Below are positions 16,701 through 57,199 of a stretch of DNA of 64,000 nt, piece after piece. How positions within the stretch are numbered: position 1 is the stretch's first letter; the number at the start of each line of letters is the position of its first letter. Source of the DNA: Balanoglossus misakiensis. Its lineage: Eukaryota > Animalia > Hemichordata. The position numbers were made by a program, and so were the translations under genes. The stretch lies in NCBI GenBank assembly GCA_040954595.2, contig CM082597.2, forward strand, positions 700,859 through 764,858, written 5' to 3'. The notes beneath the pieces are model-generated. The model was given only the letters and a program-made list of their open reading frames with translations, did not search any database and was not told where the DNA came from.

Positions 16701-18163
16701 TAAAGGTGAACAACTATGGTTCGACTTCAAAAGTGTCCCTTTGACTTCAAAGGGGTCCCTAACATTTGTAACGATTTCAATGTTTTCTCTCCAAGCTCTG
16801 TTCGCTGAAACTGTTCCACAAGATGCAGGCGCGAGTGTATCATTTGGAAATGGTGCTGTCAGTGTGAGCTTGCATGAACGTGGACAAAAAGATGGCGAGG
16901 GTAAGATAAATTTAATCTTGTCTCACAGATATATTTCCCACTTGATAAAAGACAAAAAATGCTTTGCTACACTACTACACTACGCTATGCAACTGTATTT
17001 ATTTTCACCTGTAGTCGACGTTGTGGTTGTCGCTTACAATACTATTACGGAAGTTTTGAACTTGACCAGTGTGGAGGGTTATGAATTCACATCATATGGC
17101 AGTACAGTGGTGTCAATCAATGTCAAGTACCATTCAGATGGGTCAAAGGTCACCTTCGATGATGATAACCCAATCACGTTCACTCTCGACACGTCAGCTG
17201 TAAGTATTTCAAATATTATGGCAAAGGTCACCAATATTCAGTGTCCACAGCCACAGAACATTAAAACGAAATACTATATTTGCATAATTGCCAGTTACCG
17301 TCTTCTGTCATTAATAAACCAAGCCATACATGAAGCTGATAAACACATTGTGTCTTTTTCTAAATTTATGTCTGAAGCCAAGAGAACACGAAGAAGCTAC
17401 ATGTTCTTTCTGGCAATATTCAAACGAGTGAGTAGATGTTGTTACACCTATCTTCACTATTCTCATGATGATGATGATGATGATGATGATGATGTCGATA
17501 CACGAAACTCGTCCAACTGAGAAAAGGGTTTTATTATGCCTATTAATCACTTCTTACAGACCAGAATCGTTAGATGGATGGTCGACTGAAGGTTGCTGGA
17601 AAGTCGGAGGCAGTTGTCAGTGTAACCACCTCACAAACTTTGCTGTGCTGATGAGATTTACAGATGTTGAGGTAACAAATACCGAACAATCTATTATAAC
17701 ACTGTAACTGTACATCATGCTGATTTAAATGATAGTGGACTTAAAATAAAATCGACATGCCAAAGATTGACCGATATATCTGCTTTTTTTTATCAAGATC
17801 TCAGCGAAGGACGCAGCGATCATGACGTACTTGACCAGTGCAGGAGTGGGATTATCTATCGTGTCATTGGTAGCTGCAATATTCACATTTGTCGCACTGA
17901 AGTGAGTATGGTTACACGTTGTTTTAACCATATATGGACATATGTAAATGAAGGGTGACTGCATACTTTTAAATAGCCCAATTTTCCTCTAAATTTACAT
18001 CCTTTTTCAGTTTATACAGATCACAGAGAGTGATCATTCACATCAATCTTGCCGTCGCTCTCCTCTTTGCGCAATCTCTGTTTTTGATGAGTGGATTGGT
18101 AGAAGAAATCCCGGTAAGTTTATTTCGATGGCTCTTCTTGACGACGATGATGATGATGACATC

Positions 18164-18204
<41 letters not shown>

Positions 18205-20091
18205 TTTTTTTTACTCATCAGGCACTATGTAAATGCATGGCTGTCTTGCTACACTATTTCTTCCTTGCCACTTTTTCGTGGATGTTAGTGGAGGGTATCA
18301 ACCTGTATCTGAAATCCACTGCTGCCTTCAATGCCGGAGTGAAAACACAAATCTACGCAGCCATTGGATGGGGTAAGGTGTCTTAATTTAACTAAGTTTC
18401 AAATGCAACATGGCAGATAAAGTCTTTGCTGTTTTTACCATTATTACTAAAGATATTTATGTCTAAGTGGAATAATCAATTGATACTATTGTCTGTCTAT
18501 GATTCCTCATAGGTACTCCTATAATAATAGTCGGTGTATCGTTGGCAATTAGATTTGATACCTATGGAACAGGACCAAGGTAATTTGGGATTCAATATTT
18601 GATCACATGATACGTTAAGACACCTGTATTCCACAAAGGATGTGGTAAATCAAATATGATTTTAAACTCAGTTATGCATTTTTAAATTCATATTTAATAA
18701 TTTGAACGAGAATTGCACTCATATCTTGTAATTTCTTACATTTACCTAGCGATGCTAAATGTTGGTTGAGCGCTGAATATGGACTTATCTGGGCATTCAT
18801 TGGACCTGTCATATTTGTTTTGTTGGTAAGTGTTAACATAGTTTATTTATTTGTGATTTACTTGCTACATTTTTAATTGATGCGGTAAAACAATTTGTGA
18901 ACAATGACTGTGTTCTGATTCTAGCATATCTAGCTGATACTTGGGCGTTTTTATTTCTTTTTTATTTCACGAAGGTCAATGTCGTCATATTTATAATGGT
19001 GATACGTGCATTCATGACACTCAAATTGAACGCTGATAAGGGGAAAGTTGAGAAAACAAGGTACGAACCATTAATTTAATTCCTGTAGTTATTTTAGTGT
19101 AACACCCCCCTCTCTCTCTCGTACAAGAACCTCATCTTAAATTATTTTACTACATCGCACTAATAAAATGTTGTTTTTTATGTTGTCAGATCTGGTCTGC
19201 GTGCTGGATTGGTTTTGATGCCACTGCTTGGCATAACTTGGCTGATTGGGATTGTACAGCAACTCCAGTATCTTTTCGTTGTTTTGAATTCACTGCAGGT
19301 AATTTCCTTTCTCAAATTCATCCATCAATTAACGTGAACAGACTTATGCATCACTATTTATAGAAGCCTAATATGATTGGCTGACCTGCGATTGAACACG
19401 TGATTGAACATGTGATTGAAACAACAGCACGAGAGAAACATGTCTCACATTTTCCTCTTTCTCTACAGGGCGTTTTCTTTTTTGTGCTTCATTGTATGAT
19501 GAATGACGAAGTAAGTACGATACACATAAACAATTTTTAGATTACTGGCCATTTATGCACATATAAAAAACCCCAATCCAGTCAGCCAAACAACTCTACA
19601 CCATTCCACCGAAACGCTACCACCGATCCAACCCACTCATCCATCCATTAGTTTTGACGAGAAGCAGTCAGTCGACTATATCTACGTTACTGAGATGAGA
19701 TAGCAAACTAGTACTCAACAACTGTGCTAAATGAGATGACTTCACAGACTGAAATAACTACACGGCTGGCTGTTATCTGCGATGCATAAAATACAACACC
19801 GTCCATCTAACCGATAGTAATTGCTCCACCCACAGGTCAAGAAAGCGTACCAAATAAAACGTAAACAAGCATCGTCATCGGTGATGTCATCAACATCAAA
19901 ACATGACAATCCCTCGTTTTTCACCAAGACAAGTAACTTCACCAAGGACCCGGGTAAGAATACATCTTATCGGTCAGTAATCAACAACAGAAATTATCAT
20001 TTTGGTATTTTTCAAAAACTAATAACGTTTTAATTTGCTTTCTCATACAATTTAATTTCTTCTAGGATCAGTGAAGGACGCTTGGAAATAA
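13716..20091 (+). CDS. Adhesion GPCR (ADGRD1/latrophilin-like 7TM) with N-terminal C-type lectin domain, Ser/Thr stalk and GAIN/GPS; about 19 coding exons
   Basis: CTLD exons 14442-14669 and 14830-15123 (CESGW...CYLF...FWID...WICQK). S/T-rich stalk. GPS CSFW...WSTEGC...CQCNHL|TNFAVLM at about 17400-17650. 7TM motifs HINLAVAL, LLHYFFLATFSWMLVEG, CWL, PLLGITW and NSLQG. Stop TAA at 20089-20091. The first exon (13716-13757, MVHILFLCGYTRGQ, phase 0) is tentative. Confidence 0.88.
15215..15346. mobile_element. MITE in an adhesion-GPCR intron
   Basis: Perfect 15-bp terminal inverted repeat GCAATTCTCACTACC (15215-15229 / 15332-15346), extending imperfectly to about 40 bp. Confidence 0.65.
17464..17494. 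repeat. (ATG)n microsatellite, intronic
   Basis: Run of GAT units; gives the spurious poly-D and poly-M ORFs. Confidence 0.9.
18146..18199. repeat. (ATG)n microsatellite, intronic
   Basis: Run of GAT units between two 7TM exons. Confidence 0.9.
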
Positions 20092-21807: not shown

Positions 21808-24692
21808 ATGCGTTGTTTCATCTTTGCCGTGCTTGTCGCCGCTGCATCAGCAGCCATTCAGGCGCCTTACGACCATTCGGACCGTGGAGATGCCATGAAA
21901 AATAGTTACATAGTTCAATTGAAGGTAAACAAACATTACATGTCAAATTCTGTTATTGTTATTACGATTTTTTTGCAAATTATACATTATCAAAAAAAAC
22001 GAGATGAGTTTCAACTTGCAAAGAACACAGCTTCGTTTAAGCATTTCAACATTTATACATGTATCTGTATATTGTTACACTTTAGGATGGTGTTGATGCC
22101 AACGCGTTCGCCGGGATCTTGAAATCTCAAGTCGATGTCAATGTTAAATATGTCTACACAAAGGCTCTGAATGGTTTGGCTATCGAAACAATGGATTTGG
22201 CTAGCGTAAGTTCAGCTATATAGTCATAGTATCTTAAACGTCGGTTGTCCGTCCTCATGGTATAGCACCCCTCCCCCCCTCCGGAGTCTGATTTTCAGAA
22301 ATAAACCATGAATATTTATTGATTCTGACCTGGCTTTACTTTTTTTTTCAAAGGTCCGTGGCTTTGATGGGATCAAACTGATCGAAGACAATCTCCGTGC
22401 CAGGAAACTTGTGGAATGGGGAATGGATCGTATTGATCAAAGAAATCTGCCTCTTGACAGTCTCATGATTTTGAACGGTAAGCTTTTTTGGACAAGATAA
22501 AGATAAGAAAACGATAGTTCAGTGGCTATCTATTGGGGGAAAAATGAGATGAAATTGTTGTTTGTGCGTCGACAAGAATTTAATTGTCCTATCACGTTTT
22601 CATAACACATTTACCACCGGAGCACCATTGGCATACTGAACCAGCAAATTGCAAACATCTAATTTACGGCATTTTTCTTATTACAGGAGATGGACTTGGA
22701 TCTAACGTCTACATTGTTGACAGTGGTATCCGCTACACACACGAACAATTCGGCGGCCGTGCCTCATACTTCTGGGACTACGATCCAGCCAACAACGTGA
22801 GTTGATTGAAGTTTTTCAAATATCAGTGATCATACCCATCCAGTTCAAATAAACAGTCTTTACCTTGCCAGTTGCAAAAAAGTTACAAAATGATACAACA
22901 CAGCACAGACAATTAGCAAAGCACAAAGAACAAAGTCAAATCGGTCATAGAAACAAAGTCAAATCGGTGATAGAAAGATATACATGTATGGACCTCTAGC
23001 AAAACAGACCAGGAAACATACAACCCTAACAGAGAACGTGTGAAGATAGAAACCAAACAAAAGCAACCACCACCAGTATTGTTTATCTTGCTATTATTCT
23101 TGTTATTGTTATTATTTAGGGAAATGATTGTGACGGTCATGGAACTCATTGTTCTGGAACCGCTGCTGGAAATACCGTTGGCGTTGCACCAAAGGCAATG
23201 ATACACAGCGTGAGAGTTCTCGACTGCCAAGGATCTGGCTACATTTCCGACATCGTCGCCGGTAAGTTTTTGGGGGGCTTAATTCTATGGTTGGTGAAAT
23301 TTTTAAAAAATCGCGGCGACAACAATTTTGCTGTCGTAGGCACTGACACTACTTCATTTTGATGAGTCTAGCGCCCTCATGAGGGGAGTGGCATTTTATA
23401 GGAATTGTCAGTTTTGATATCATGAATTATCGCGCAATAACGACATCTGTTTCTTATCTAGCTCTTGATTACATTATCGCTAATGGTAACGACCCAACCA
23501 GAAGTGTCTGCTCTCTGTCTATTGGTAGCGGTCCCAACAGCGCCTTCGACGATGCTGTCAGAAACACCGTTCTTGCCGGCTACTCTGTGTCAGTTGCCGC
23601 TGGAAATTCTGGCAAAAGTGCCTGTACTGAATCTCCCAGTAGAGTCGCGGAAGTAAGTTACCATGTCACGTGACTGTACCGCGTTGTACAATACAGCAGA
23701 CTCTGACAGCAGACTACCTTATGACATTGACTGTATATTATTTTTGTAATCAGAGTCTCTGGTTTGGCACATGCGCATAAGAAGATCGTTGCCCTTTAAA
23801 AACTAGTTTAAAATGTGATGTGCAGAAAACGCTATCTTGTTTTGGGGATTAAGAATAAGAGGGTGGTATATGCTTACCTGTTGATTCAGTTGATGGCTCG
23901 GACTTCGAAGGACACACCCGAAGGAACGGCAGTTCTTTTCCACATAGAGCGCTGTAAAATTTCCCCGAGAAGTTCTCCAAAATCCTGGAACAACCAGTCA
24001 TCCTTGTCAACCTCTTACTGTCTTTCTGCTTCGCGTTTTAACGTGTTTTTGCGGGTCACGGGCGAATACGCTGTCGACATCCGACGGACACGATGCTGTC
24101 ACCAGGAAAGAGTGACACGACGGAAGTGACGTGGCAATGCACCTGTAGGTGCCGTGTATTGAACTAGGTCGCTCTCAGCCAATGGGAATCCATATGCCTA
24201 CGTTACGTTCTAAGCGTCCATTGGCTGACAGAAAATCAGTGTACACCAGGTGTTGCGGACGTGTTACAAGCAGATTATGCACCAAACTCTGCACCTATTA
24301 CTAATTTCATCCAAATTTTGATTCGTATTACTTAGCTGCAAGCCGTTGCTACGATAATTAACAAAGTCTCGCCAGATCTCAATGGTTTGAAAATCGTCTA
24401 TTAACGGTTTACCCTTCCTTTTTACTATTACAGTGCATTACAGTTGCCGCCTCTGACAACACTGATACCCGTGCAAGCTGGTCCAACTATGGCGACTGTG
24501 TTGATATCTTCGGTCCTGGTGTTAATGTCAGAAGTAGCGTGCATACATGTGATACTTGCTACGATACTTGGAGCGGTACATCCATGGCAACCCCTCACGT
24601 GACAGGTACATGTTTGAGTCATTTGCATGCAATCGTCTGGTCTTCCTTTTCTGTCTCATTTTCCTCCCACCTTTCCTCCCCCTATCTCTGTC

Positions 24693-24725
<33 letters not shown>

Positions 24726-25098
24726 GTTACTTTCTCTCTCTCGAGCTCTCTCTCCCTCCCCCTCTCTCGCCATGGCCACCCTCACGTGACATGTTTGAGT
24801 CATTTGCATGCAATCATCTGGTCTCGCATTCAAACTTCTGTGGATTAATAAGACCACGTCCATTAACTACGTTACAGGTCGTTAACCATGAAGAATAAAT
24901 GATAACAAAATAAATAAATATTTAACACGTGTATCACGATTTCTTTCCTTTCATCCAGGCGTTATAGCTACCCACCTGGCCGCCCAGACCTGCACCAGCA
25001 ACGATTCCTGCAAGGCTAAGCTTCTGGCGGAGGCCACTCCCGGTGTCATCAGTGATCCGGGAACGAACACACCCAACCTCCTTCTGTATGCCGATTAA
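21808..25098 (+). CDS. Secreted subtilisin-like serine protease (S8A, aqualysin/proteinase K-like), copy 1; 8 coding exons
   Basis: Exons 21808-21924, 22086-22205, 22354-22477, 22687-22796, 23120-23261, 23462-23652, 24434-24605, 24959-25098. Signal peptide, I9-type prodomain (YIVQLK), [14 protein letters not shown], catalytic VDSG / HGTH / GTSM, oxyanion-hole AAGN, C-terminal PNLLLY. Confidence 0.95.
23751..24291. mobile_element. Putative insertion in intron 6 of protease copy 1
   Basis: This intron is about 780 bp, against about 95 bp for the equivalent intron in copy 2. Ends are CAGAGT...ACTCTG, with an internal hairpin CAGCCAATGG/CCATTGGCTG at 24176-24227. Confidence 0.4.
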
Positions 25099-26903: not shown

Positions 26904-29248
26904 ATGCGCCTTTTCGTCTTTGCAATCTTTCTCAGTGCCGCATCGGCGGTCGAAGTTCCCTATTTGCAGTCGGTTGGTGGCGACGCATTGCCAAACAGCT
27001 ACGTTATCCAGCTCAAGGTAAAATTCCTTCCACATTCAACATTTGGCAAGAGCATCATGCTCACTACATACAGTGACCCATTGCATTTTATACACTGACA
27101 AAACTATTATAACATAATTGTAACACACATGACCACTTTAATTCTGCTTGACCTTCTAGGATGGTGTTGATGTCGATCTGTTCAGCCATATACTCCAGAG
27201 CCAGGTGGCCGTCGATATTAAATATGTCTACACAAAAGCTCTGAATGGTTTGGCCATTGAAACCATGGATTTGCCAAGCGTAAGTTCTACTCTGTACAAA
27301 TTCGATCCTGTACAAACTTTCAAACAACATTCTTCCCACCACACTTGCCCCACGTAGGCTTCAGTAATTCATCCTCCATGCAGTAGTTCCCTGAGTGTTT
27401 TGTTATCATGATTCTTGTACAAGCAAATGTTTGTATATTATGTGCTTTTAAAAAATAAACCCACCATTTCTTGTACTTGAAGGTTCGCACATTTGATGAG
27501 ATCAAAGTTGTGGAAGACAACATCCGGGTCAGAAAAGTTGTCGAATGGGGAATGGACCGAATCGACCAAAGGAATCTGCCACTGGACGGACTTATGCTTC
27601 TGCACGGTAAGTTGGGGCCAAAATGGCGGATAATTCTGACTACTCCATGATGTGGATCACGTGACCTATCGATACGGATCACGTGACCGATTCTCTGATT
27701 CTGCAAGTAAGACTAGTGACGCAATATGCACTTTTAATACACTTTTTCTTCAATCTAGTGCCCTCGTGTAGCCATTATGAATTTGAACTCAAAGCGAGGC
27801 CGATTGGCATCCATGCAAAATTAATAACAGTTTCTTGATTTTTGACGCTAGCGGACGGACTTGGTGCAAACATCTACGTTGTTGACAGCGGAATCCGCTA
27901 CACCCATGAACAGTTTGGCGGTCGTGCCTCCTACTTCTGGGATTACAATCCTTCCAACGGAGTGAGTTTGTTTTTACTGCAATTTAGTGAACATTTCATG
28001 AATCTATGACATTAAAAAGGCATAAAGGTGTATTATTCTGTAGAGGATTAGCCTTTTCATCGTCACAGCAAGAAACAAACCAAACCAAACTTTTCTAACC
28101 AAGATACGTTTAATACACACACAGGGAAACGACTGCGACGGTCATGGAACTCATTGTTCTGGAACCGCTGCTGGTAATACAGTCGGTATTGCACCCAAGG
28201 CTTTACTGTTCAGTGTGAGAGTTCTCGACTGCCAAGGATCTGGATACATATCCGACATTGTGGCGGGTGAGAATTTTGTTCATTTGCGAGAATTGAACAG
28301 CAGACCACATTTTTGTCTGCATCAAGGATGAGGGAAATAAATTGACGATTGGCCGTCGTTGTTTGCATTTCTTGGCTACTGAATAACGTATGGTATCTAC
28401 ATGTGATTGAAGCCGCGGTTTGCCATGTCGACATTGCTTGATGAATAATTAGGACCTACTTTTCGCCTTTTCAGGTCTTAACGAAATTATCACCAACGGT
28501 GCAGACCCAACAAAGAGTGTTTGTTCCCTGTCTGTTGGCAGCGGTCCAAACAACGCCTTCGACGACGCAGTCAGGAACACCATTCTTGCCGGATACACGG
28601 TGTCCGTCGCCGCTGGAAATTCGAATGGAAACGCCTGCTTTGAATCTCCCAGTAGAGTCGATGAAGTAAGTAGACGATGCCATGAGTATGACCTTTGCCC
28701 CCAAAGTGACGTCACCAACGACTGATAAGTATGATAACACTGTTATTGCATTCTTTACAGTGTATCACTGTTGCAGCCACTGACAGTACCGACACACGCG
28801 CATCATTTTCCAACTTTGGCACCTGCGTCGATCTCTTTGCCCCTGGTGTTAATGTCAGAAGTAGTACACAGGTCTGCGATACTTGCTACGCTACTTGGAG
28901 TGGAACTTCTATGGCCTGCCCCCATGTGACAGGTAATCTTTTTAGTTTCGTCTTTGTCACGAATTCGTCACCTGGTCAGTACGGACAACATGCGCAGCCA
29001 GACCAAAAGTTGCTATAGTAATTTAGATTGCATCCTACTTCATTAAAATGGCCTGTTGGATGTGTTACTATTCGCTTTTATGGCTAACTATTTCTACTCA
29101 TTTACTTGTAGGTATTGCAGCAATTCACCTGGCTGATGGTCACTGTACAGACAATACTTCTTGCAAGACCGAAATCCTCGCGGAAGCTACTGCGGGTGTT
29201 GTCACAGATCCAAGCAATTCTCCAAACCTTCTCGCATATTGCGACTAG
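26904..29248 (+). CDS. Secreted subtilisin-like serine protease (S8A, aqualysin/proteinase K-like), copy 2; 8 coding exons
   Basis: Same intron positions as copy 1. Signal peptide [53 protein letters not shown]. Confidence 0.95.
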
Positions 29249-29999
29249 CTTGAGTAGGCCTACACTGTGAATGAGTTTATTAGCATCATTTACCTTAGAC
29301 GCCGTTTCTCCACCTGTTACATTTCAAGCACATGGTTCCCATAAATATGATTCATTCCTTGACTCTTAAAGCATGTTGAATATTAAAATAAATTTAAAAT
29401 CAACTACAAGCAAGTGTATTTTTCTTTATTTCTCGTCATCTGACAAACTTCGAGGCCATTATTGGCTTTGAATTGTAAATACACGTCTCAGTGCTCAAAC
29501 GCAAGGACACTGTTCCCGGGGCCAGACTGGTTAAGAAAACAAAAACCGATGTTGTTTGAAAATTTCGGAAGCGTTATAGGTTTAAATCTTTTCTGTTTAT
29601 CGCACTATGTTTATATCGGTCACCAAGCAACGACGCCGACGGACCAATAAACCCCATTCCAAAGCCCATATTGTATTATTGCTGCCCTTTGTAGAGGCCG
29701 CTAATTCATCATTACCTCAGGATGTGGAAAGCCCTACTATTGACCGGCGATTTGCTATGTGGAATCAACTATTATCAAATAAATGCATTTTTCGAAATGC
29801 ACACTAAGTCTTGGTATACCACGGGTGAGATTTCATTCATGGCACGTAATCTATCGACGGACGATTATGGTTTTCATCATCATCCATTTAAAACCTGCAG
29901 CAAAAAGTCCAATTTTTGAAAAGGAAAGTAAATCAAAGGACATCCATATTAGCCATTTCACCAGAACACTGCTTCGTCACAACCTCGCCAGATTTCGAC

Positions 30000-31289
30000 A
30001 TGGGTAGCGGGAGTTCGAAACCTGTCTCTGCGCGTTCACCGACGCCTCCAATAACCCCTCGGATACCAGTCAGCGTACAAACAAGGTACATAAAAAAGTT
30101 TCATTGAGTTTGATGTAAGGTAGCGTCCTTAGATTAATCTCTTCAAATGTTTCATGTCTTAAAATAGTCTCACCCTTATCTCCCCTGTATTCATTTTTTT
30201 CTACGAAGGCCTTTGGACGAATGCGGTTTCTGCAAAACGAAAGAAGCGACCGGTTTTTGTGTCGACTGCGGAGTGCTCCTCTGCCGGCAATGTACGAATC
30301 ACCACAACGAGGCAAGCGTACTGAGGAAACACGACAAGATTCCGCTGGCTACGTACAAAACTAAGAGACAGCTGCTGTCTAAGTATGTTCGTCCGAGTGT
30401 GTGTTCGCAACATGCAGGTAATGAAATGACCTACTACTGCAGTCATTGCCAAGTGGCCATGTGCGTCGTGTGTGCCGAGTACATCCACAAAGCTCCCCCT
30501 CATCGACACATAACTTTGATCGACGCACTGGTGCAAAAACACAAGGCTTTGGAGGAGAATATAGAGAGAGTTAAACAAAAGAAGCAGACGATGATAAACA
30601 TGAAATCTGACCTGACAAGCTTCCGGAGAGAGAATGTGACAGATGGCGACGATCTCAAAACGACGGTACAGGTTCACACACAGAAAATCATCAGCAAGTT
30701 GAAGCAAACGATCGACGATCTGCAAACAGAAAGCGAGAAATTGGTCAAAGATCTCGAGAAGGGACAGCAATCAAAAATGGACTTTGCCAAAGAGAAAGAA
30801 AGAGAGATTAAGATTTGTGTCACAGATTGCGAGAAGCAGCTACGACATGCGAATGACCTACTGGAAAACAGCAATGATACCGGATTTCTTCGAGCTGTCG
30901 ACAAGATATGCGAATCGCTCAAGACAGTGTCTGACCACGAAGTGCGACATAACCCGGAGTCGAAAACGCGATTTAGTCCGATTGACGACGCTATCGAGGC
31001 GGCAAGGAAGGGGAAGATTGGTTGGCTGGTAACTGAGGAGCGTGGGACGACGAAACAGGAGAGGTTAAAGATCACGAGGAATGATCCTCGACGTGAATGG
31101 GGCAACGCCGGCAACTCACGAGAAGACACCGAACGACCCCATGCCTCAAGTTCACGGTCTGATTGGAATCGCCTTTTGGAATCTCAAAGGGGGCGACTTC
31201 AGTGCAAATCCAGCTGTTCGTCGGATTCACCAAAGAGGGAAGAATGGTATCTCAAATATGTCCATCCTAACTGGGGAGAGCTTGTGTAA
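30000..31289 (+). CDS. RING-less TRIM-like B-box1/B-box2/coiled-coil protein 1 with N-terminal MGSGSS; exons 30000-30085 and 30209-31289
   Basis: Exon 1 MGSGSSKPVSARSPTPPITPRIPVSVQTR joins in frame across a phase-2 GT-AG intron to CGFC..CVDC..CRQC..HH (B-box1), C..H...YYC..C...MCVVC...H...H (B-box2) and a heptad-rich coil. Confidence 0.88.
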
Positions 31290-31851
31290 CAATTACAACA
31301 ATGTATTTTGGACTTAATTTTTTTCTCACTGGCAGACGGCTGGTATGATAATCACATCTTTGGTTGGCGTGTTACTACCTATGAATGAAAATCAACAAAC
31401 CTTATGTATAGAAACTTTATTGAACATTTTTCTGTCCAACTTTTTACAATATAAACCCTTTCGTTTACATTTTAATATAAATCAGCCTGAGAAACGCTTA
31501 GTAAACCACTCATCTTGATTCTAATCTAATACATGTACAAAGTTTCGGAAATTAAAGTGTAAAACTTAACAGTGTAAATGTCTCTTTCTTTAAGAGCGAT
31601 TTTGTAAATCAGACAATTTGATATCAGTGCAGCCTCAAGGCTCATCTTCTATAGTTTTGTAAAAACAGAACAATGTAATATCTTAGTGCTCAAAATGAAA
31701 TGTAATGTTAACATGATTTTTATATAAATAAATCTCCAATAAATTGTCAGTGTAACCTTTTCCATTCATCTTATATTCTGTAACGGTCTTCAGATGCTCC
31801 ATTAAAAGTATGTTTTGTATCAGTATATATGGCTGCCCGGCAGCCATTTTA

Positions 31852-33224
31852 TTATTTCTTCTCCAATGCAGAAAAATTCGCCCAATAAGAAGCCCAGCCA
31901 GAAGACCTCTTTGAACCTTTAGACTGTTTCTTGTTTTGCCGATGTTTGGTCTCTGAATCCCAGCTTCGAGTGCTCCGTGGACTTTCCACTTGTTCTGACA
32001 TTCCAGTGTTGTTGCTATTAGTAACCGTGTTGTTGCTATTAGTAACCAGACGACCAACCTTTCCTCTCCTCACTGCTTCTGTGGCGCTATCGATTGGCGC
32101 GAACTGCAAACCCTGACCCAGGTTCCCACAGACCTCTTGTTCCGAAGCAGCCTTCAGAGACGCACAGATCTCATCCACAGCTAACAGAAATCCAATGTCG
32201 TTGCTGTGTTCAAGCAGATCATTCGCATCCTGCATGGATCTATCAAATCGCCAGACGCACGATCTACTTTCTGCTTCTGTTGTCTTGGCAACTTCTCCCA
32301 GAGCCTGTCCTCTCATTTCTATCTCCCTGACAAGGTTGTCCCCGTCTGCTTGTAGATCTTCAATCGCATGTCTCAGCTTGGCCACAAGTTTCTTGGTGTG
32401 TGCCTGGACAGCGTGTTTCAGATCTGAACTGTCCGAGGCAGAAGGGTCTTGAGATGTGAACACGTGTCTCTTCTGTTTCAGAATAGCTATATGCTCATTC
32501 AATTCCTTGTGTTTCTGTATAAGTGCATTGATGAGCGTTGTGTGTTTATGCAATGGCGGCTTGTGGTTGTACTCGGCACACACAACGCACATGGGAACAC
32601 CACAGCTCTTGCAGTAATACGTCATCTCATTTCCCTCATGGAATCTGCAACCAACAGGACTGACGTACCTGGAAAGGATGTGCTGTTTATTTCGGTAAAC
32701 AGCCAGCGGCATTTTGTCGTGTTTCTTCAGTAGCATAGCTTCATTGTGGTGACGTGTGCAGTCATCGCAGATCAGAACGCCGCAGTCCACGCAGAAGCTT
32801 ATCGCTACTCTGGTCTTACAAAATCCACACTCGTCGTAGTGGGCGCCAGATTGTAGAGACCTTTGTGGAAAAAAAGACGAACACTTATATTATACATTAA
32901 TTAATTCATATTAATACTCTAAGACTTCAATTATACCCATCTGTATTTCAAAGTTCATAGATCAAATATGACTGTTACCTGGTCTCAAAGACAAACACAC
33001 AACAATGTAGCACAGGTCAACCAACAACAACAACAACACACACACACACACACACACAATAACACCACCAATACGACTACTAATGATGACAATTATTCTT
33101 CTAATCAACAAACAATTTAAACAAATTTGTATCCGCACCTTGTATGAGCACTGGGGGATTCCCAGGCCGGGTAGAAGGGACTCGACATCTCAGTATCGAA
33201 TTCACTGGAGCTTCCACAACCCAT
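31852..33224 (-). CDS. RING-less TRIM-like B-box/coiled-coil protein 2 with N-terminal MGCGSS; exons 33224-33139 and 32860-31852
   Basis: Exon 1 MGCGSSSEFDTEMSSPFYPAWESPSAHTR (86 nt, same length as in paralog 1) joins in frame to SLQSGAHYDECGFCK. Clear paralog of 30000-31289. Confidence 0.88.
32006..32047. repeat. Perfect in-frame 21-bp tandem duplication (VTNSNNT x2) inside B-box gene 2
   Basis: GTGTTGTTGCTATTAGTAACC occurs twice in tandem. Confidence 0.95.
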
Positions 33225-34502
33225 TTCGTTGTGAAGTTGCCGGAGACACACTGGATGCAAGAAAAAAAAATGCAAGTTACATGTCAATAACAGGGTAACA
33301 AGCAGTAATTGGTCATTTTTGTCAGATACTCGCCGTAAACGCGTCACTCACATCACACATGGGCATTTCTGTTGGCCTTTCCGCGTCAGGTATGAAATAA
33401 TATGAAATAAAAATGTGAAATCCTTCGGAATATGAAACATTTGAAAGAACTTATAGTTGATACTTACCGAGAATCAAGTCGGGTAACGCAATAAACGTCG
33501 TGACTACAAGCGTGTGAACCGTCAGAGAAAACGCACGAACAATTTATTCGACGACAGACTTGCATTCGTTCTCAAATACAGCTTAGTCTCAGTTTTCAGG
33601 GATCGAGGCATTCACAAAACACTACTTCAAGAGAGTGCAACAAAATGGCTGAAATTCAAGACCCGGATTTAAGACGACAAAGCCTCGCCATGGGCATAGA
33701 CGAATCCAACTATTGAATTTAAGAAATGGACAATAAAGTGTTGGATATAAGTGTATCAGTAACCAAGGCTTAACAATAAGAATAGAGAAAACTAGATTAC
33801 AAACATAGACCTTCAGTGCCTTTTCTCACGTTGCCAGCTTGACAACCTTCCCAGCTGTCACCGCGGTTCGCTCGGTGTCATGGCTATGCACATGCGCCAG
33901 GTGTTCTGATCCTTACTCTGCAGGCATTGTTGCCAGGTAACCGAAGTAAACAAAGAGAAATGTCCAATCATATTTAAGAACTATCCCTTGTCGAACTGAA
34001 CCAAGTGCGACAACATGTGTACTGGAAAACATGGCAGTAAATTATTACTGCAAAATAAAACCAAATGAGGCGCAAGCATTTTGATTTATAAATCATTTAT
34101 TTGAATTTTGAAACGATTACAATGATTGCACAGCAGATCACACGTTTAGTACATAGAATAAGAATGATATTGTAAATACCAGTAAATATAGAGGAACTAT
34201 GCATTTGTAATCAGCGTAAGATATGCAGCGGGGGACGGTATATAGGAGTAGGTAAATACCAAACATCTCAATGGAAGCTATGTTAAAATTGTATTTGGTT
34301 GAACAGTCGTTTTTCAGGAATATAATGGATATTTACTAGTCTCATAAGTCTAGATTAAAACTGGAAAAATCATGGACGGAAAAAGCGCACAGTATTATAA
34401 TTACTTGGTCTTGTATGTCAGTCTCCAGAAATCATATATCATACTAATGTTATGACATGGAATATCCCAGCTACCCAGTTTCAGCATAGGAAGGTTGTAC
34501 TT

Positions 34503-36043
34503 CTACCAGTCGTCAGATGTCTCTACCTTGGCTGTATTGTCCGTGGGAGGCGCTGTATCTCCTTGATTGGATGTCACGGTGCCTGGTCTACTGCCTGCTT
34601 TGGACTTGCTTCTGGCAGACACGTTCGTTCCTGGTCTGGATTTGCCGACGCTCGAAGCCTTGGACGCGGGTCTGCCATTGCTGGTCACGGACATCATTGT
34701 GTTTGGTCGTAGGCCTGCCTCCATGATCTTTTGTTCTTCTTCGTTCAGGTTGAAACCATTGGTCTGTGGAGCTGTCACCATGTAGTTGTTGTTGTTGCTG
34801 TGGGTGGTGTCTGGCCGGAAGTTCTGTCCACTTTGGCGCGATGAAGATGACGACCGGCTTGATTCATCTGCTCTTGATGACCTTCCGGGGAAATTCTTCG
34901 TGTACCCGTTGCCAGAGTTGTTGCTTCCAGTCACCACTTTCCCTACAACGTTGATGGGCATAGACTCAATGATAACCTCGTTTGGCACGAACTCGTAAGT
35001 AACAGGGGCATCCACAGTGATGTCCTTACTGGTCTCCAGTTTCAGTCTGGCGATGTATTTATTAACGGACAACAGAAATCCAATCTCGTTGCTGGAAGTC
35101 ACCATGACCCTAGTCTTCTCCATCTCGTACTCCATCTTGGTCAGGTGTTTGTTGATCTCTGACGTCATGTCATCCAGCATTCTCGTGTTCTTCTGCTGCA
35201 TCTGCACGACCTGTTTAGTCAGGTTCTCTCCATGCATCTGCAACTGTATGATCATCTGGTGCAGTCTATTGGTCAGCTGGTCAGTGTGATCCTTGATGAG
35301 ACCCACCGTCACTTGACCTTTCTCAGAACTCTTCTGGCGCTCATCAATGACCTTTGTTCGCAAGGTCAACCAATCTCTCTTCTTACTCTCGCTTGCCTTC
35401 AGGGCCTCTTGGATCTCTCCCTTCTTCCTTTCTCTGCCAGCGATAAGCGTCAGGTGCTGGTGTCTTGGCTTGGTGTGGTTATACTCAGCACAGACCATGC
35501 ATATGGGAATACTACACGTGTTACAGTAGTAGGTCAGTTCATTGCCGGCATGTACGTGGCATATCAGAGATTTCACGTATTGGTCAATGGTGGCTCTCTG
35601 AAGCTTGTAGTCCTCGTAGGTGATCAGACGATGTTTCTTCAACAGGTTGGCGTCTTCGTGGTGTGATCTGCAGTCCTGGCACATCTGCACAGCGCAATCA
35701 GTGCAGTACATCTGAGATGGTTTGGATCTGCAGAGAACGCACTGGTCTTTGAGAAGGAGTCGTTCTTCTGTTGTTGGTCGGTACGAGATGGTGGTGCTAC
35801 TGGTCTTTGGTGGTTCTGGTAGAGGCGTTGGATCCACAAGGATTATTGGTGAAGGGGAATACATGTTGTAAGGATGAGGAGAATCTTCCCTCTCCATTCC
35901 AGGCTCTGCCTGCATCCCCCTGTGGAAAACATTAAAACAGTGCTATAAAATCCGTGACTACAATGATGAAGACATTTCATGATGGCGGTCTGTTGAGACA
36001 GACAGACAGACAGAGACACAGAGAGAGAGATGAGTGAGTGAGT

Positions 36044-36127
<84 letters not shown>

Positions 36128-36259
36128 AATTGTAAACACTAACGTGTCAATGTAGCTGGATATAAAAATGTAGAAGCGCATAAGAAAAAAATATCCTTAC
36201 TGTGACTCCACCCACTTGACATCTTTCTTCTCATCGACTTGAGAACTTCCGCTTCCCAT
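34503..36259 (-). CDS. RING-less TRIM-like B-box/coiled-coil protein 3 with N-terminal MGSGSS; exons 36259-36201 and 35919-34503
   Basis: Exon 1 MGSGSSQVDEKKDVKWVES(Q), donor CA|GTAAGG, phase 2, joins in frame to GMQAEP. Two B-boxes, coiled coil, SNEIGFL motif shared with the paralogs, and a long Ser/Asn-rich tail. Confidence 0.88.
35995..36128. repeat. (AG)n/(ACAG)n microsatellite in the intron of B-box gene 3
   Basis: Long AG run flanked by GACA units. Confidence 0.95.
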
Positions 36260-38669
36260 GTTTACGTCAGAGCAATATCAGCGTCTACAATATAAGACAA
36301 AAATATCAGGGTTGTCAACCAAATCGGGATATTTATTATGCTGTTGCAATTACATCACTAATTTACCCATTATACGAAACGTCAAATGATTTTGTCATAT
36401 TTCTTCACCTCCCTTGCCTGCCAACAAATACATTGATGATAAATTTCTACTAACACAACAATTTTATCGATTTCTTATCAACACAGTTTGTTTTGGAGAC
36501 TGTTACCAAAACCTTATACATACTATGACCTGACTCTTACGTGCGTGATTTGAAACTCCGCGAGAGAAAAAAAATAGCCTAATTCATCGTTTTCTATGGA
36601 AAAGTTGGACCTCAAAACAGGAAAATGGGGGATATGACCGCTATCGAACGAACACTACATGTAATATGCTTTTAATTTACTCAGGGTATTAGCAATTGGG
36701 ATTTCCTTATCAGATGAGAGCCCCTCTCTTCATCAGCTCCTAATAAATACTCGTTTGATAGAGTCTTGCGTGACATGGAGCGGACTTATTTGATCTACTT
36801 ATCGGATCATGGTACGTGTGATTTAGTAAGTAGCTCAGATATTCGTCATGTTATCTCATAGTTTAGACACTATAGTCAATAGTCATTAATTATAATCACA
36901 GCTATTGTATAGGCGTCCAGTTATCGCTGGACTTTGATGATATGCCGGTGCTTTCGTTTTGTTTGGTACTGTATGTTTGGCATACGCGCCATCGCCATGG
37001 TGATCAGCGATAGAGATTAGCGTTTCTCTGCCACGTCTCGCCAAGCGTGCAATTCAGTCGGCAAACACGGAAGGTAAAACTACCTTTGGGTCACACAAAA
37101 TTACAAAATATCTGAGAAAACCCCCAAAACGACAAAATGTCTACATGAATATGGAATGAACCCAATATCCATCGAATTGTCAAAAGGCCATGTTATTATT
37201 ATAAAGACATGAAGCAGTGACTATCTTTCCTAGTGAGTAATTACGTCGCAACGCCATCTTTTCTCGTTGCCTCTGTCGTCACCCTCTCAATTCTCACTCT
37301 TCCCCTCTTTCTCTGAAGTCGTTGCTAAATTTCCTTGTATATTTTGAGCTTCTTCAATCTCACGAATAATCAAGTAGCTATATAGTGAATGACATGTTGG
37401 GAGTTATGTCTCATTTGTTGAAGTTCTTTTAAGTTCTTTCACTTTACACTTGTAAACTTCAAAGTACTAGGGAAGTCAAAATTAGCAGAAGTGTTTATCG
37501 ACAAGTCACTGATGTACTTTCTGTTTAATGTACCACGACAGGTAATTATTATACAATACAGATTGTTTAATCAAATTATTGGCAACGCTGTGAAATCACA
37601 TCAACTTGAAGTTTGAGAAATTCGAGTACGTTTTTCGAAAAAAAATACGCTACCACAATCAACTGTCAGCCCTTCAGCCAAATCGTTAATGAAAAAAGCA
37701 TCAATTCAATTCTCATACACATTTACCACGTACATAATGGAAACGTTTACTCACCTACTGTCACCCCGAAACAGCACTGGACGATGCTCTCCGGCCAAAA
37801 GTGGAGGCTGGTCTCTTCAATCCCGTTTTGCAGCGTGGCAGTTGTGTGTTAATTAATGATTAGTCAATCATTATCGGTGATGTATGATCAACTGATGGGG
37901 TGAACGCGGGGGTCACTGCACATCGATAAGACCATTTCGTGATTCGATTTATATCATCCCGGGAAGCTTAACATATTTCCCAGGGTGTGTCAATGAAATA
38001 TTTAGTTTTACGAATTTTCCTGGAATCTAACACCGAGAGCTTAAGTTATAAGACGGATTAAGTGGGAGAGACAGGTTTCCACGACAACGCTGAGCAAGGT
38101 GTCATTTAAAAAAATAAATTATGCAGGGGAAAGGTGTTTTTATCGCACTGCCAGTTGCTAGTTTAAGTGTTTTTTAAATCTCTACCCGAAGATATTGCGC
38201 AAGCTTGATCTGAGAGTAATTTATAAAATGCAGATGTCATTACAGTACCAAAAGTTGAAGTCATAAGTATGGGTGACGTATAGTAAATAAACTCGCAATG
38301 AAGCTTGTGAAATAAGAAAGAAGTTGTATTACAGATGTTGATGGCGCTATTCGTAACAATTATCAGGTTACACGATCGAGTTCTGTATCACAAAAACAGC
38401 TTTGATACGCTCTGCTGTAGAATGCAGAAAATGAATTGACTGACTGACTGACTGCTTGATTGATTGATTGATTGACCTAAATTTCGCCTGGCTGGCATAC
38501 ATACTTTGTCGTTTATGCAAGGATGATGCCATGCCTTGTGACTGGCCTACATTCGCAAGTTGGCATGGGGCTTGCCATGAATGGTAGAAGTCTCACCTTA
38601 GGTGCATTTCCGGATATGATGTCAGCATGATGTTTACAACTCACTCGGGTCACTGTAGTGAATTACACG

Positions 38670-46530: not shown

Positions 46531-47866
46531 TCATTTATGAATAATATTAAAATCGATTGTCAGATCTTTGCTAAGGTCTTGAAGTTGGTCTGCTCCCGTT
46601 ACATTTACATATCCTAATAGTTCCATAGCGCGTGTGCACTTCCCCTGAACAGCCTCCAACTGTTTCATCGTTACTTGCTTCCTCCAGTAGTCAACTACCA
46701 ATTTTGAATTCTTGGTCGTGGAGAATTTGAGTAATGTATTCGAGGGCGTGTTGTTGGAAGTCCATTGGACAATGTTTTCATCCGCGTGTAATCCCAAAAA
46801 GTTGTAAATTCTTTCCATTTCTTGAAAAGTGTGTTTGGCCACATCCTCGTACCGGAGGACTCTATACTTTCCACTAAACAAATCTGAATTTCGCGCGACA
46901 AGCAAGTTTTTCTCCAAATCCCGACAGTACTGTAAGATTTCGTCATCACCTCCTCTTCGCTTGAAATCTTTGTTCGTCATTTTCAACGCGCTCCTAGAAT
47001 TAAACACCGCCCTTGGGTCACGAACGAGGTGAAGGATACGTACATTCAAGCTGGAGTCGATCAAAAATGATCTTAGCAAGTTTATATCATAAATGCGTAT
47101 TATCTTCACAGCAATATGGCGACGAGTTTTGCAAATATTGGCCAGAGTATTTTTAATTTTGCGTTTTTTCTTGGGAAACTTCTCCGTTGTGTGCCTGTTT
47201 TTGCAGAAATCGGCAAATGAAATCGCCTTGGCAAAGTTGCAGTTCGTTTGAACGTTGAGTTGCCATTTCTCAGGTAGGTTGTTGAAGTCACAGCGAAATA
47301 TTGAATTCAGGGAGTCAATGGACATGCTGTCGAAGAGGTAATTGGATAGGTTGCCTTCCATGACGGAGTGAGTGTAGATTTCTATTGGTTCAAACATATA
47401 GAAGAAATCACTGTTCCGGTTGAACAATTCTCCGACGAATGATGAACCTGTGCGTTTGCTGGCGAAGATGATTACCTGGACGGAAGCGTTACTTGTTGCC
47501 ATGGTTTCAGGTACTGGTAACAGAGAGTGTCTTTTAGAAAGAAGCTCTTTCTGCAACTCGTGGGTGCAGTCATCGGGTTGTAGCAACAGCACTGCAAAAT
47601 ATAACAGAAGTCGTATAAGAATCAGACCGTATGTACCTCCACACCCGGGGCTGGAGGTACAGAGCGCCCTCAAACGACTGTACCTTACAGTCGAATGACG
47701 CAGATTACTGTTCGCGGTTGCCAGTGACAACCCCACGTCTTATTTGTAAAATGACAAATCATTCTGATAGTTAGTTCACCAAAGGAAACGCACCTCGTAT
47801 GTTGAACAGAGTGAGTCCTAATATTGTGGTGAAAGTTACTAGACGGAGAGAGGTCAACCGAACCAT
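46531..47866 (-). CDS. Golgi carbohydrate 6-O-sulfotransferase (CHST1/3/5-like); exons 47866-47794 and 47591-46531
   Basis: 5'-PSB motif KRTGSSFVGELF, FEP, 3'-PB motif LVRDPRAV..SR, RYED. Exon 1 MVRLTSLRLVTFTTILGLTLFNIR supplies a type II anchor through a phase-1 intron (G|GTGCGT...TTTTGCAG|TG). Confidence 0.88.
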
Positions 47867-49312
47867 TGCATCGACACCGTCCGTTCTTCAATGAAACACC
47901 TGTGTAAAAACAGAAAGTCTGTACATCACTGTGGCTGCAGGCTGTTATAATTTCAATGTGAATGACAGTTTACATACTCTGTACGACAGACAGTGAAGCA
48001 GGCAGGTAGATAGACAGACATATCCACTAATGTACACATTATAACACTACTGGCCACTGTACAATTGTCGCCCTTCTATTTTCACATGGATGACGTACAG
48101 ATGTATACTTGGTCAGACGTCGTGACCAAAAAACCTCCATCAGTGGGCCAATCTAGATTAACTAACCTGAACATAACCGAATAAAGAATACTGTAGCCAC
48201 ACACACACGGATCGACAGCAGCTTGAAGACTGCTAACAACAATATTCGCTTTGCGAAGAAAGAAAACAAAGGTTTAGAAAGAGAATGGCTGTCATGATTA
48301 CGTAACACAGTAGAGGCGATATCACTTTCAAAGGTGATTGAGTCAAAAGGCTCAGAGTTGAAATTCACGATGCGCGAGGGCGCTAGACTTACGAAAAGGA
48401 TGTACATGTACTTTGCACATACCTCTGTCGGCCAGCAACTCACCAAATCAACCTATTGACATGTTTGGCCACTTCACTGGGTTCAAGGAACGGTGCAATA
48501 AAATTTGCGAACGTGGGCCGCTCGTCATCTTCAAGTGATCTCTGCACATGTAGCCCTGGTCTAGAGAAAGACTTTTGACTTTCTATCACTTTTTCCAGCC
48601 AGGTCATTGGAAGAACAGACGTGTAAAGCTTACATGGCAACGAAATAAGGTCCATCAGATAAGAAGTGTGACACGTTTTTGATATTAACAGAATTAAAAT
48701 ATCATCTGTTGTGGACATTTTAAGATAAATAATTTTCCCACAAACGGTTCAGATCCACGTGGTTCTGGAGTCAGACCTGCCCAGTGTACTACTAGTATCC
48801 TCTCTCCAATACTACCCGGTTAATACACCAGAAGGTCCCGTCATCTTGATTTGCTTGGCTTGTGAGCGTCACAACCCTGCCTGGGCTACCCATACAGATA
48901 CATCAGTAAGTTTTTCCACCGACTGAAATTGCAATTGCAGTCGTGTAAGCTTTCCTGGAATGTACCTCTCATTCATATATCGGAGAAACTACCAAGTACG
49001 AAGCAGGACGTCAACACAAAAATTCCATATGGTCAGGTCATTCCAGGAGTCAGTTGCTCGTTCTAGCAACAATTCGTTGCGGTTATAGGTCTAGAAATAC
49101 GAGAGTGCTTTAGTTCCAAGTTGCAACAAACAGGCGTTCCAGAAATAAAGGAAATCGAACTACACGATGTACATAAATTTTCCTATAAATCTTTGTTCAG
49201 TGGTTGGTCGTTGTTCACTCTTTTTGGTCACTTGAAGATTATTATAAGTCACAAATGAGATCTCTTTTACTTTTGTTGGTTTCCATTTTATTGCGTTTTC
49301 AGATCGATTTCA

Positions 49313-49867
49313 ATGGCACGACCAGAGATAACTATAATTTCTGGCCTGTTGGTCCTGACTGTTCTGAACGTCGGTCTGGCTGATGTCGATATCGACACCG
49401 AAACATGTGACGCCAGCTGTAACAAATACAGTAAGTCAGCCAACGAACAGCAATCAGCATTCTATGTGTCGTTGGATCAACACATCATGAAAACCAAGTC
49501 CCAAACTCGTCTCAAGTTCGACGAAGTTGCGCTCAATATCGGCGAGCATTGGGATGAAGAGAATAGCGTCTTCAAGTGTGAAATCCCAGGTGTCTATGTA
49601 TTCACCTTGAACTTGATGAAGATGGGCGACTGTCCGAGCGCTACTGGTTTCATCACCATTAGCGACAGCACTCTTAAACCCAAGAAGCAAGACATCAGTG
49701 CGTACACACACAGCGAGATGTACTCCACTGGTAGCAGTTACAGAATCTTGCAACTGAAAAAGGGTGACGTGATCTATGTGACAATAACTGGTGGTTCTTG
49801 TGTATTTGGCAGTAATGTCAGATACACAAATTTCAGTGGTCATCTTTTATATCCAGATGACCAGTAA
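49313..49867 (+). CDS. Secreted globular C1q-domain protein (cerebellin/C1qDC-like, no collagen region)
   Basis: Signal peptide; AFYV, KFDEVALNIG, FKCEIPGVYVF, LQLKKGDVIYV and FSGHLLYPD are gC1q signatures. Confidence 0.92.
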   Translation: MARPEITIISGLLVLTVLNVGLADVDIDTETCDASCNKYSKSANEQQSAFYVSLDQHIMKTKSQTRLKFDEVALNIGEHWDEENSVFKCEIPGVYVFTLNLMKMGDCPSATGFITISDSTLKPKKQDISAYTHSEMYSTGSSYRILQLKKGDVIYVTITGGSCVFGSNVRYTNFSGHLLYPDDQ

Positions 49868-56729: not shown

Positions 56730-57143
56730 TCAATATTCTTGACTTTGCGATGACTTCTTTCCCGCTTTCCCAGCGGCAGTTCCCGTCTTCTTCGGCAAGA
56801 GCACGGCTTGGATATTCGGCAGTACTCCTCCCTGTGCTATTGTCACTCCAGACATCAGCTTGTTCAATTCTTCGTCATTTCTGACGGCCAGCTGCAAGTG
56901 ACGGGGGATAATTCTGGTCTTCTTGTTATCTCTGGCGGCATTTCCGGCCAATTCAAGGATTTCCGCGGCCAAGTACTCAAGGACAGCCGCCAAGTAGACA
57001 GGGGCACCTGCGCCAATGCGTTCAGCGTAATTTCCTTTCCTGAGAAAACGATGCACTCTTCCTACGGGAAACTGAAGACCAGCACGGCTGGAACGGCTTT
57101 TGGCCTTGCCTTTGGCTTTTCCGCCTTTACCTCTGCCAGACAT
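56730..57143 (-). CDS. H2AX: Histone H2A.X (intronless)
   Basis: Canonical H2A fold plus an extended tail ending in SQEY. Confidence 0.97.
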
Positions 57144-57199
57144 GTTGAATTTTTCTGTCTTTCTCCACCCGGAAACGTCTGCTGGAATGCTTTTCTGTA

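What the first reader, a model, noticed from the sequence alone, without database searches (positions are those of the whole stretch)
30000..36259. Three RING-less TRIM-like genes, each with a hidden first exon encoding an N-myristoylation motif (MGSGSS / MGCGSS / MGSGSS)
Seen: the ORF track starts these proteins at or near the B-boxes. Each actually has a short upstream exon (30000-30085, 33224-33139, 36259-36201) joined in frame by a phase-2 GT-AG intron. All three begin MG(S/C)GSS, while the rest of exon 1 has diverged, which points to selection on those six residues. The architecture is MGxxxS, B-box1, B-box2, coiled coil (shared SN(D/E)xGFL) and a disordered tail, with no RING and no SPRY/NHL/filamin domain. 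Established: Gly2 with Ser6 is the N-myristoyltransferase consensus, and Cys3 (paralog 2) is a typical palmitoylation site. TRIM coiled coils form antiparallel dimers and B-boxes drive higher-order assembly. Inference: a lipid anchor replaces the RING, giving a membrane-tethered TRIM scaffold or decoy that could bridge membranes or recruit RING-bearing TRIMs. I do not recognise this as a named family.
Basis: partly seen in the sequence, partly recalled or inferred. Interest (0 to 1): 0.8.

Follow-up and report, generated by a model that had tools for sequence, protein, structure and literature searches.

The report
Lipid-anchored RING-less acorn-worm TRIM rods
Three neighbouring genes, likely from an acorn worm, are predicted to encode TRIM-like proteins that lack the ubiquitin-ligase RING finger and begin with the same six residues as relatives in two other acorn worms; that start likely carries a fatty-acid anchor, so the predicted rod-shaped dimers would sit on membranes as scaffolds, possibly in cilia.

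Summary
Observation confirmed. Three open two-exon frames (388, 364, 491 aa) start MG[SC]GSS and carry B-box1, B-box2 and a coiled coil; no RING lies anywhere in the window. Eight database proteins from Ptychodera flava and Saccoglossus kowalevskii form one clade with them (100/99); 7 of 8 start MG[SC]GSS, none has a RING, and one is identical for 27 residues across the predicted gene-3 junction. The exons are likely first coding exons, not first exons. 'Anchor replaces RING' is weakened: 4 of 10 proteins of the mostly RING-bearing sister group also start MGxxxS, so the anchor likely came first. Best reading: myristoylated antiparallel rods (homodimer model 0.69, best control 0.00, possibly from memory of solved TRIMs) with an anchor at each end, acting as non-catalytic membrane scaffolds. 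New lead: invariant small residues 3-5 fit the published UNC119 ciliary-cargo motif, cystin starts with the same hexapeptide, and 2 of the window's 3 strict RFX X-boxes lie upstream of genes 1 and 2 (post hoc). Splicing, acylation and location are untested; no RNA holder was listed. No description found in print, and the scan had not noted this on other DNA.

The parts
30000..30085 (+). Gene 1 first coding exon (86 nt, MGSGSS start, Pro-rich linker)
30086..30208 (+). Gene 1 predicted phase-2 GT-AG intron (123 nt; AAG acceptor as in gene 2)
   Evidence: not seen in RNA
30209..31289 (+). Gene 1 main exon: B-box1, B-box2, coiled coil, SNDxGFL hairpin, tail with EEWYLKY motif, stop
33139..33224 (-). 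Gene 2 first coding exon (86 nt, MGCGSS start with Cys3)
32861..33138 (-). Gene 2 predicted phase-2 GT-AG intron (278 nt)
   Evidence: not seen in RNA
31852..32860 (-). Gene 2 main exon: B-box1, B-box2, coiled coil with an 8-residue deletion, hairpin, tail, stop
36201..36259 (-). Gene 3 first coding exon (59 nt, MGSGSS start; in-frame stop 21 nt upstream of the ATG)
35920..36200 (-). Gene 3 predicted phase-2 GT-AG intron (281 nt, holds a GA microsatellite)
   Evidence: junction matched by P. flava P0001
34503..35919 (-). Gene 3 main exon: Pro-rich linker, B-box1, B-box2, coiled coil, hairpin, long tail ending in Trp, stop
33251..33467 (-). Candidate 5' UTR intron of gene 2 (donor GTAAGT after 33468, acceptor before 33250); adds no in-frame ATG
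   Evidence: inferred
36285..36306 (-). Candidate splice acceptor 25 nt before the gene 3 ATG
   Evidence: inferred
29619..29631 (.). Strict RFX X-box match 381 nt upstream of the gene 1 ATG
   Evidence: consensus as printed in bioRxiv 10.1101/2022.11.11.515474; function untested
33929..33941 (.). Strict RFX X-box match about 705 nt upstream of the gene 2 ATG
   Evidence: function untested

Best explanation
These are three open-frame paralogues of a RING-less B-box1/B-box2/coiled-coil clade found only in acorn worms in these searches, whose conserved MG[SC]GSS start is likely N-myristoylated and whose predicted antiparallel dimers would act as non-catalytic scaffolds on a membrane face. Steps: (1) shown: frames, motif, intact zinc ligands, no RING, conservation in two other species. 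(2) Inferred: Met removal and myristoylation of Gly2, with S-palmitoylation of Cys3 in gene 2. (3) Predicted: coiled-coil homodimer about 17-18 nm long, one N-terminus at each end. (4) Inferred: one myristate is a weak anchor (established knowledge, recalled), and genes 1 and 3 lack Cys3, so two myristates per rod supply the second signal; the rod most simply lies along one bilayer, B-boxes link rods end to end, and the tails, which leave the hairpin, present short conserved motifs to partners. (5) Inferred history: the anchor arose in RING-bearing acorn-worm TRIMs, then this branch lost the RING and the C-terminal propeller.
For: Clade of 11 rows at 100/99; HMMER over 1.84 billion representatives gives 7 members at 240-434 bits, then a gap to 159; all 8 database members are P. 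flava or S. kowalevskii. 7 of 8 start MG[SC]GSS; positions 1, 2, 4, 5, 6 are invariant in all 10 MG members (3 of them my models), position 8 onward at most 5 of 10; 1 of 134 proteins outside the clade and its sister group has such a start. P0001 is identical to the gene 3 model for 27 residues across the junction. All B-box ligands are invariant. Cystin begins with the same hexapeptide and its Gly2 is listed as a myristoylation site (PMC4049891 table, PMC11240719 table; passages). Homodimer model of P0002 residues 40-318: score 0.69, best of 3 controls 0.00, runs agree in at least 73% of contacts, pLDDT at least 75; the mark was reached by 20 of 30 solved pairs and 1 of 23 single chains (microbes), 17 of 29 and 0 of 30 in eukaryotes; contacts 157:250 and 167:239 are antiparallel. 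TRIM25 is a 170 A antiparallel rod (PMC5076470, passages). RING plus MGxxxS in 4 of 10 sister-group proteins.
Against: Nothing here shows transcription, splicing, acylation or localisation. Database members are computed gene models whose RNA support I could not see. For gene 1 all 4 upstream donor/acceptor pairs could add an in-frame ATG and bury Gly2; for gene 2, 1 of 4; for gene 3, 0 of 3. P0008 lacks the motif. The dimer pass may be memory of solved TRIM rods and was run on the P. flava orthologue. 'Non-catalytic' rests only on the missing RING; RING-less TRIM16 has B-box E3 activity (PMC3357404, abstract). The node joining the clade to the MG-RING group is weak (81/69), 6 of 10 sister proteins lack the motif, and kin share labels, so 'anchor first' is only mildly favoured.
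Confidence: 0.6

Rival explanations
1. Ciliary version (refines rather than replaces the best reading): the N-terminus is a high-affinity UNC119 cargo signal, the genes are RFX targets, and the rods work on the ciliary membrane.
For: UNC119A Specific Cargo motif = myristoylation consensus plus small residues at 3, 4, 5 (PMC6179904, section 8 and passages); residues 3-5 are [SC]-G-S in 10 of 10 MG members although the PROSITE pattern (recalled) leaves 4-5 free; sister TRIMs vary there (CVA, CIT, NVV, SGA). Cystin starts identically. Strict X-box: 3 in 64 kb against 0.57 in shuffles (max 5), 2 within 1 kb upstream of genes 1 and 2.
Against: PDE9A1 also starts MGSGSS and was seen at Golgi and membranes in PMC1647287 (passages); LCK uses the motif outside cilia; myristoylation alone is insufficient for NPHP3 ciliary targeting (PMC4049891). 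No cystin-type EGG motif in the N-terminal linkers. The X-boxes were spotted by eye first, 4 patterns were tried, gene 3 has no strict site, and start sites are unknown.
Confidence: 0.25
2. Membrane-bound ubiquitin ligase or ligase subunit: B-boxes act as the E3, or the rods heterodimerise with RING-bearing sister TRIMs and recruit or damp them.
For: TRIM16 lacks a RING, has B-box E3 activity and heterodimerises (PMC3357404 abstract). B-boxes are the most conserved part (66% between genes 1 and 2 against 41% in the coil). Likely lipid-anchored RING-bearing sisters exist in the same animals.
Against: No test of E2 binding or heterodimers was run; coils have diverged to 19-21% identity between gene 3 and genes 1/2, which argues against free mixing even among paralogues.
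Confidence: 0.2
3. Membrane tether: the two anchors insert in different bilayers about 17-30 nm apart.
For: Predicted end-on N-termini with 26-73 residue low-confidence linkers.
Against: Both ends carry the same anchor, so nothing selects two different membranes; binding one bilayer is simpler (inference).
Confidence: 0.1
4. The motif is not acylated in vivo, or the genes are decaying leftovers of TRIM expansion.
For: RING-less B-box/coil proteins are common in invertebrates; possible gene 1 extension; P0008 lacks the motif.
Against: Synonymous sites are saturated (pS 0.61-1.0) while frames, zinc ligands and the hexapeptide persist, and orthologues keep them in two other species.
Confidence: 0.05

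Closest known systems
Subfamily C / class VII TRIMs (TRIM2, TRIM3, TRIM45, TRIM56, TRIM71; Marin 2012, PMC3503706)
   Same: Nearest relatives outside the clade are acorn-worm RING-B1-B2-CC(-NHL) proteins labelled TRIM2/3/45/71-like; TRIM3 and TRIM28 are the best solved-sequence hits.
   Different: No RING, filamin or NHL; N-terminal MG[SC]GSS instead. No vertebrate reference was in my tree, so the subfamily assignment is not tested.
RING-less TRIM-like proteins TRIM16 and TRIM29
   Same: Two B-boxes plus coiled coil without RING; TRIM29 is among the Atlas structure look-alikes (TM 0.55); TRIM16 homo- and heterodimerises.
   Different: Neither is among the sequence neighbours seen here; TRIM16 has a SPRY domain and neither is known to be myristoylated (recalled, not tested).
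TRIM31
   Same: A TRIM proposed to reach membranes through lipidation (PMC4890305, passages).
   Different: Has a RING; palmitoylation proposed on B-box cysteines, not shown directly; the authors saw no myristoylation consensus.
Cystin and other UNC119 cargoes (NPHP3, LCK, FMNL1)
   Same: Identical or motif-equivalent N-terminal hexapeptide; NPHP3 also pairs a myristoylation site with a coiled coil.
   Different: No homology beyond six residues; no cystin-type second targeting motif.

Membership tests
TRIM (complete RBCC) | N-terminal RING | tested here: not met
   no RING in the 3 models, the 8 database members (0-4 bits) or the window's six frames
TRIM (complete RBCC) | B-box1 and/or B-box2 with zinc ligands | tested here: met
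TRIM (complete RBCC) | Coiled coil forming an antiparallel hairpin dimer | tested here: met
   predicted only: helices 142-259 and 262-281; dimer model 0.69 vs control 0.00, possibly from memory
TRIM-like (Marin 2012: clearly TRIM-related but lacking RING or B-boxes) | Sequence kinship to canonical TRIMs with incomplete RBCC | tested here: met
   definition read in passages
Subfamily C TRIM-NHL | Filamin and/or NHL C-terminal domains | tested here: not met
   tails low-confidence
Subfamily C TRIM-NHL | Grouping with TRIM2/3/45/56/71 in a tree | tested here: inconclusive
   nested among automatically named TRIM2/3/45/71-like acorn-worm proteins, no curated references included
N-myristoylated proteins | Gly2 consensus with Ser at 6 | tested here: met
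   (pattern recalled from PROSITE): 10 of 11 clade rows
N-myristoylated proteins | The ATG is the true start | tested here: inconclusive
   purine at -3 in all three, in-frame stop 21 nt before gene 3; database models start there; gene 1 extension not excluded
N-myristoylated proteins | Myristate on Gly2 | not testable with these tools
   needs labelling or mass spectrometry
UNC119A Specific Cargo | Small residues at 3, 4, 5 after the myristoylation consensus | tested here: met
UNC119A Specific Cargo | High-affinity UNC119 binding, release by ARL3 only, ciliary localisation | not testable with these tools
   bench test

The most novel reading that the evidence does not exclude
Acorn worms evolved a radiation of myristoylated TRIMs, and this RING-less branch became an RFX-driven, UNC119-delivered set of 17-nm double-anchored rods that assemble through their B-boxes into a lattice under the ciliary membrane: a TRIM skeleton turned into a lipid-anchored membrane scaffold.
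Probability: 0.2. Interest if true: 0.75.

Novelty: new variant of a known kind. Interest (0 to 1): 0.52.

Why it matters
No myristoylated TRIM or TRIM-like family turned up in the paper searches run here, and the databases label these proteins as E3 ligases although they have no RING. If acylation holds, they are a natural case of a TRIM rod with a lipid at each end, which makes testable how dimer avidity can serve as the second membrane signal and whether B-box lattices form on bilayers. The sister group adds likely myristoylated RING TRIMs, so gain of an anchor and loss of catalysis can be ordered on a tree. The reach is limited: the clade was found only in acorn worms.

Tried and rejected
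No whole genome is held. Word-based searches returned 5 and 6 clade members and no further species; one search added only P0153 plus generic TRIM2/3 hits. No Glandiceps member of the RING-less clade was returned although that species is in the collection; unexplained. Foldseek's top hit, a Toxoplasma pre-conoid ring chain (E 2e-4, TM 0.18, rmsd 53 A), was rejected as coiled-coil noise; the next hits are KAP1, TRIM5 and CONSTANS B-boxes. dN/dS could not be estimated: synonymous sites are saturated. The B-box2 pattern had a wrong spacer and gave false negatives; corrected (11 of 11). The RING regex missed real RINGs; replaced by a profile. Four short rows were dropped before the 151-row tree; the careful tree used 39 of these 151 rows, chosen by me. 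Fisher tests are not used because kin share labels. No AU test was run. A consistent LIR motif in the tails was looked for by eye and not found. The primary cystin paper (PMC2794227) is not held. Paper searches that found no description of the family: 0 papers; 13, titles and abstract starts seen, one read in passages; 1, listing only; 0 for six accessions; 12, listing only; subscription journals are largely missing and no supplementary files were read, so gene-family tables in hemichordate genome papers (e.g. PMC11175523, whose main text has no 'B-box') could list these genes.
Full report
1. Observation. Joined frames are open for 388, 364 and 491 aa. MG[SC]GSS occurs 3 times in the window's six frames against 0.005 in shuffles, each time a few hundred bases upstream of a B-box exon; the loose MGxxx[ST] pattern is at chance level (14 against 13.1). 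The six codons differ synonymously at four positions. Pfam finds two B-boxes and nothing else of weight, and a RING profile finds no RING exon in 64 kb. Good acceptors 25-26 nt before the ATGs of genes 2 and 3 suggest untranslated upstream exons. Gene 3 cannot be extended through that acceptor because of an in-frame stop; gene 2 could be by 1 of 4 upstream pairs and gene 1 by 4 of 4 weak pairs. No RNA holder was listed, so splicing is inferred.

2. Relatives. A word-based search gave five proteins from Ptychodera flava and Saccoglossus kowalevskii, all starting MG[SC]GSS. An index-free HMMER search of 1.84 billion representatives gave 7 proteins at 240-434 bits and then a gap to 159. Together these are 8 database members, 4 per species; 7 of 8 carry the motif and none a RING. 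P0001 is the gene 3 orthologue (69% over the core) and is identical to the model for 27 residues straight across the predicted junction, independent support for that intron. P0002 and P0003 group with gene 1; gene 2 is their sister. Shared contig lengths and close accession numbers suggest clusters in both species (inference). The window is therefore likely from an acorn worm. P. flava and another acorn worm, Schizocardium, last shared an ancestor over 370 million years ago (PMC11175523, passage); the Saccoglossus split is of like depth (recalled).

3. History. In a 39-row maximum-likelihood tree of the B-box/coil region, the RING-less proteins are one clade (100/99) nested in a 20-row group (94/93) and a 27-row group (99/98), all of whose database rows are acorn-worm proteins. 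The other members mostly have a RING, and 4 of 10 sister-group proteins start MGxxxS (P0009, P0017, P0025, P0034), against 1 of 134 among the rest; P0153, found later, is a further one close to P0025, and P0049 has such a motif at residue 26 of a probably mis-built model. So anchor and RING coexist in close kin. One gain with three losses takes four steps on this tree; separate gains take four or five depending on a weak node (81/69). 'Anchor first, RING lost later' is mildly favoured; 'anchor replaces RING' is not needed. RING loss by itself is ordinary: the nearest Atlas clusters are RING-less B-box proteins, commonest in molluscs, and earlier scan notes report several such arrays (unchecked).

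4. Anatomy. AlphaFold2 on the orthologue P0002 gives confident B-boxes, a long helix (142-259), a return helix starting at the SNDxGFL motif, a short strand-helix-strand element, and low-confidence N-linker and tail. All zinc ligands are invariant in 11 rows. The two-copy model of residues 40-318 scored 0.69 against a best control of 0.00, with at least 73% contact agreement and pLDDT at least 75; that mark was reached by 20 of 30 solved pairs and 1 of 23 single chains in microbes, 17 of 29 and 0 of 30 in eukaryotes, and the pass may be from memory of solved TRIMs. The contacts are antiparallel, and SNDxGFL packs on the partner's coil start, which explains its conservation structurally. By arithmetic the rod is about 177 A, like the 170 A of TRIM25 (PMC5076470, passages). 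The tails hold short conserved motifs: E-x-W-aromatic-x-K-Y in gene 1, P0002 and P0007, and a C-terminal Trp in gene 3, P0001, P0005 and P0006; partners unknown.

5. Mechanism. The start fits the myristoylation consensus, and cystin has the same hexapeptide with Gly2 listed as its myristoylation site (tables in PMC4049891 and PMC11240719; primary paper not held). I put acylation at about 0.85. One myristate binds membranes weakly (established knowledge, recalled); gene 2 has Cys3, but genes 1 and 3 have none, and gene 3 has no basic patch (4 basic, 6 acidic in residues 7-30), so two anchors per dimer are the likely second signal. The simplest working form is a rod lying on one membrane as a scaffold, without intrinsic RING activity (0.6 overall). 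B-box E3 activity or partnering with RING sisters, as for TRIM16 (PMC3357404, abstract), remains open (0.2); tethering two membranes is possible but has no selecting feature (0.1).

6. Ciliary lead. Gly4 and Ser5 are invariant in 10 of 10 although the general consensus leaves them free. PMC6179904 (section 8 and passages) shows that small residues at 3-5 give high-affinity UNC119A binding and ARL3-specific release, and names this a cargo motif for cilia and the immune synapse. The strict RFX X-box (consensus in bioRxiv 10.1101/2022.11.11.515474, passages) occurs 3 times in the window against 0.57 expected, twice within 1 kb upstream of genes 1 and 2. Against: post hoc, four patterns tried, none strict for gene 3, PDE9A1 has the same start without reported ciliary location in PMC1647287 (passages), and the motif alone does not suffice for NPHP3. 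A lead at about 0.25.

7. Comparison and verdict. By Marin's definition (PMC3503706, passages) these are TRIM-like, not TRIM; database names calling them E3 ligases are automatic. The closest lipid-linked TRIM found in print is TRIM31, by proposed B-box palmitoylation (PMC4890305, passages). Five searches found no description of a myristoylated TRIM-like family, within an open-access library and without supplements. The scan had no look-alike sequence and no note with all the key words. Verdict: real, conserved, lineage-restricted new variant of a known kind; interest 0.52.

Noticed in passing
P0009, P0017, P0025, P0153 (P. flava), P0034 (S. kowalevskii), P0013 (G. talaboti): RING-bearing acorn-worm TRIMs that start MGxxxS: likely myristoylated TRIM ligases; P0017 has two RINGs, P0013 also has NHL repeats.
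   Followed up: partly
P0049 residues 26-75: Internal MGSGCS and only the first half of a RING: probably a mis-built model of a P0025 orthologue, or a separate partial RING loss.
   Followed up: no
P0008: Only clade member without the motif, on a long branch (0.81 against 0.24 for its sister): missed exon or relaxed copy.
   Followed up: no
window 32006-32047: Perfect in-frame 21-nt tandem duplication in the tail of gene 2; gene 2 also lacks 8 residues in the first coil helix.
   Followed up: partly
window 34503-34520 and 31240-31275: C-terminal acidic-Trp end of gene 3 (shared terminal Trp with P0001, P0005, P0006) and a Trp/Tyr motif near the end of gene 1; they recall acidic-Trp docking motifs of Arp2/3 activators or kinesin light-chain cargoes (recalled, untested).
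   Followed up: partly
window 17973-18386, 24362-24898, 28710-29018, 46531-47739, 49259-49867, 53550-53945, 56730-57230: Neighbours by Pfam: secretin-family 7TM exon, two subtilase (S8) exons suggesting a tandem pair, sulfotransferase, C1q-domain gene, protein kinase exon, and a histone H2A ending SQEY (H2A.X-like, recalled). None points to cilia.
   Followed up: partly
window 2974-2987, 9832-9844, 51630-51642: Further strict or relaxed X-box matches away from the three genes; their genes were not identified.
   Followed up: no
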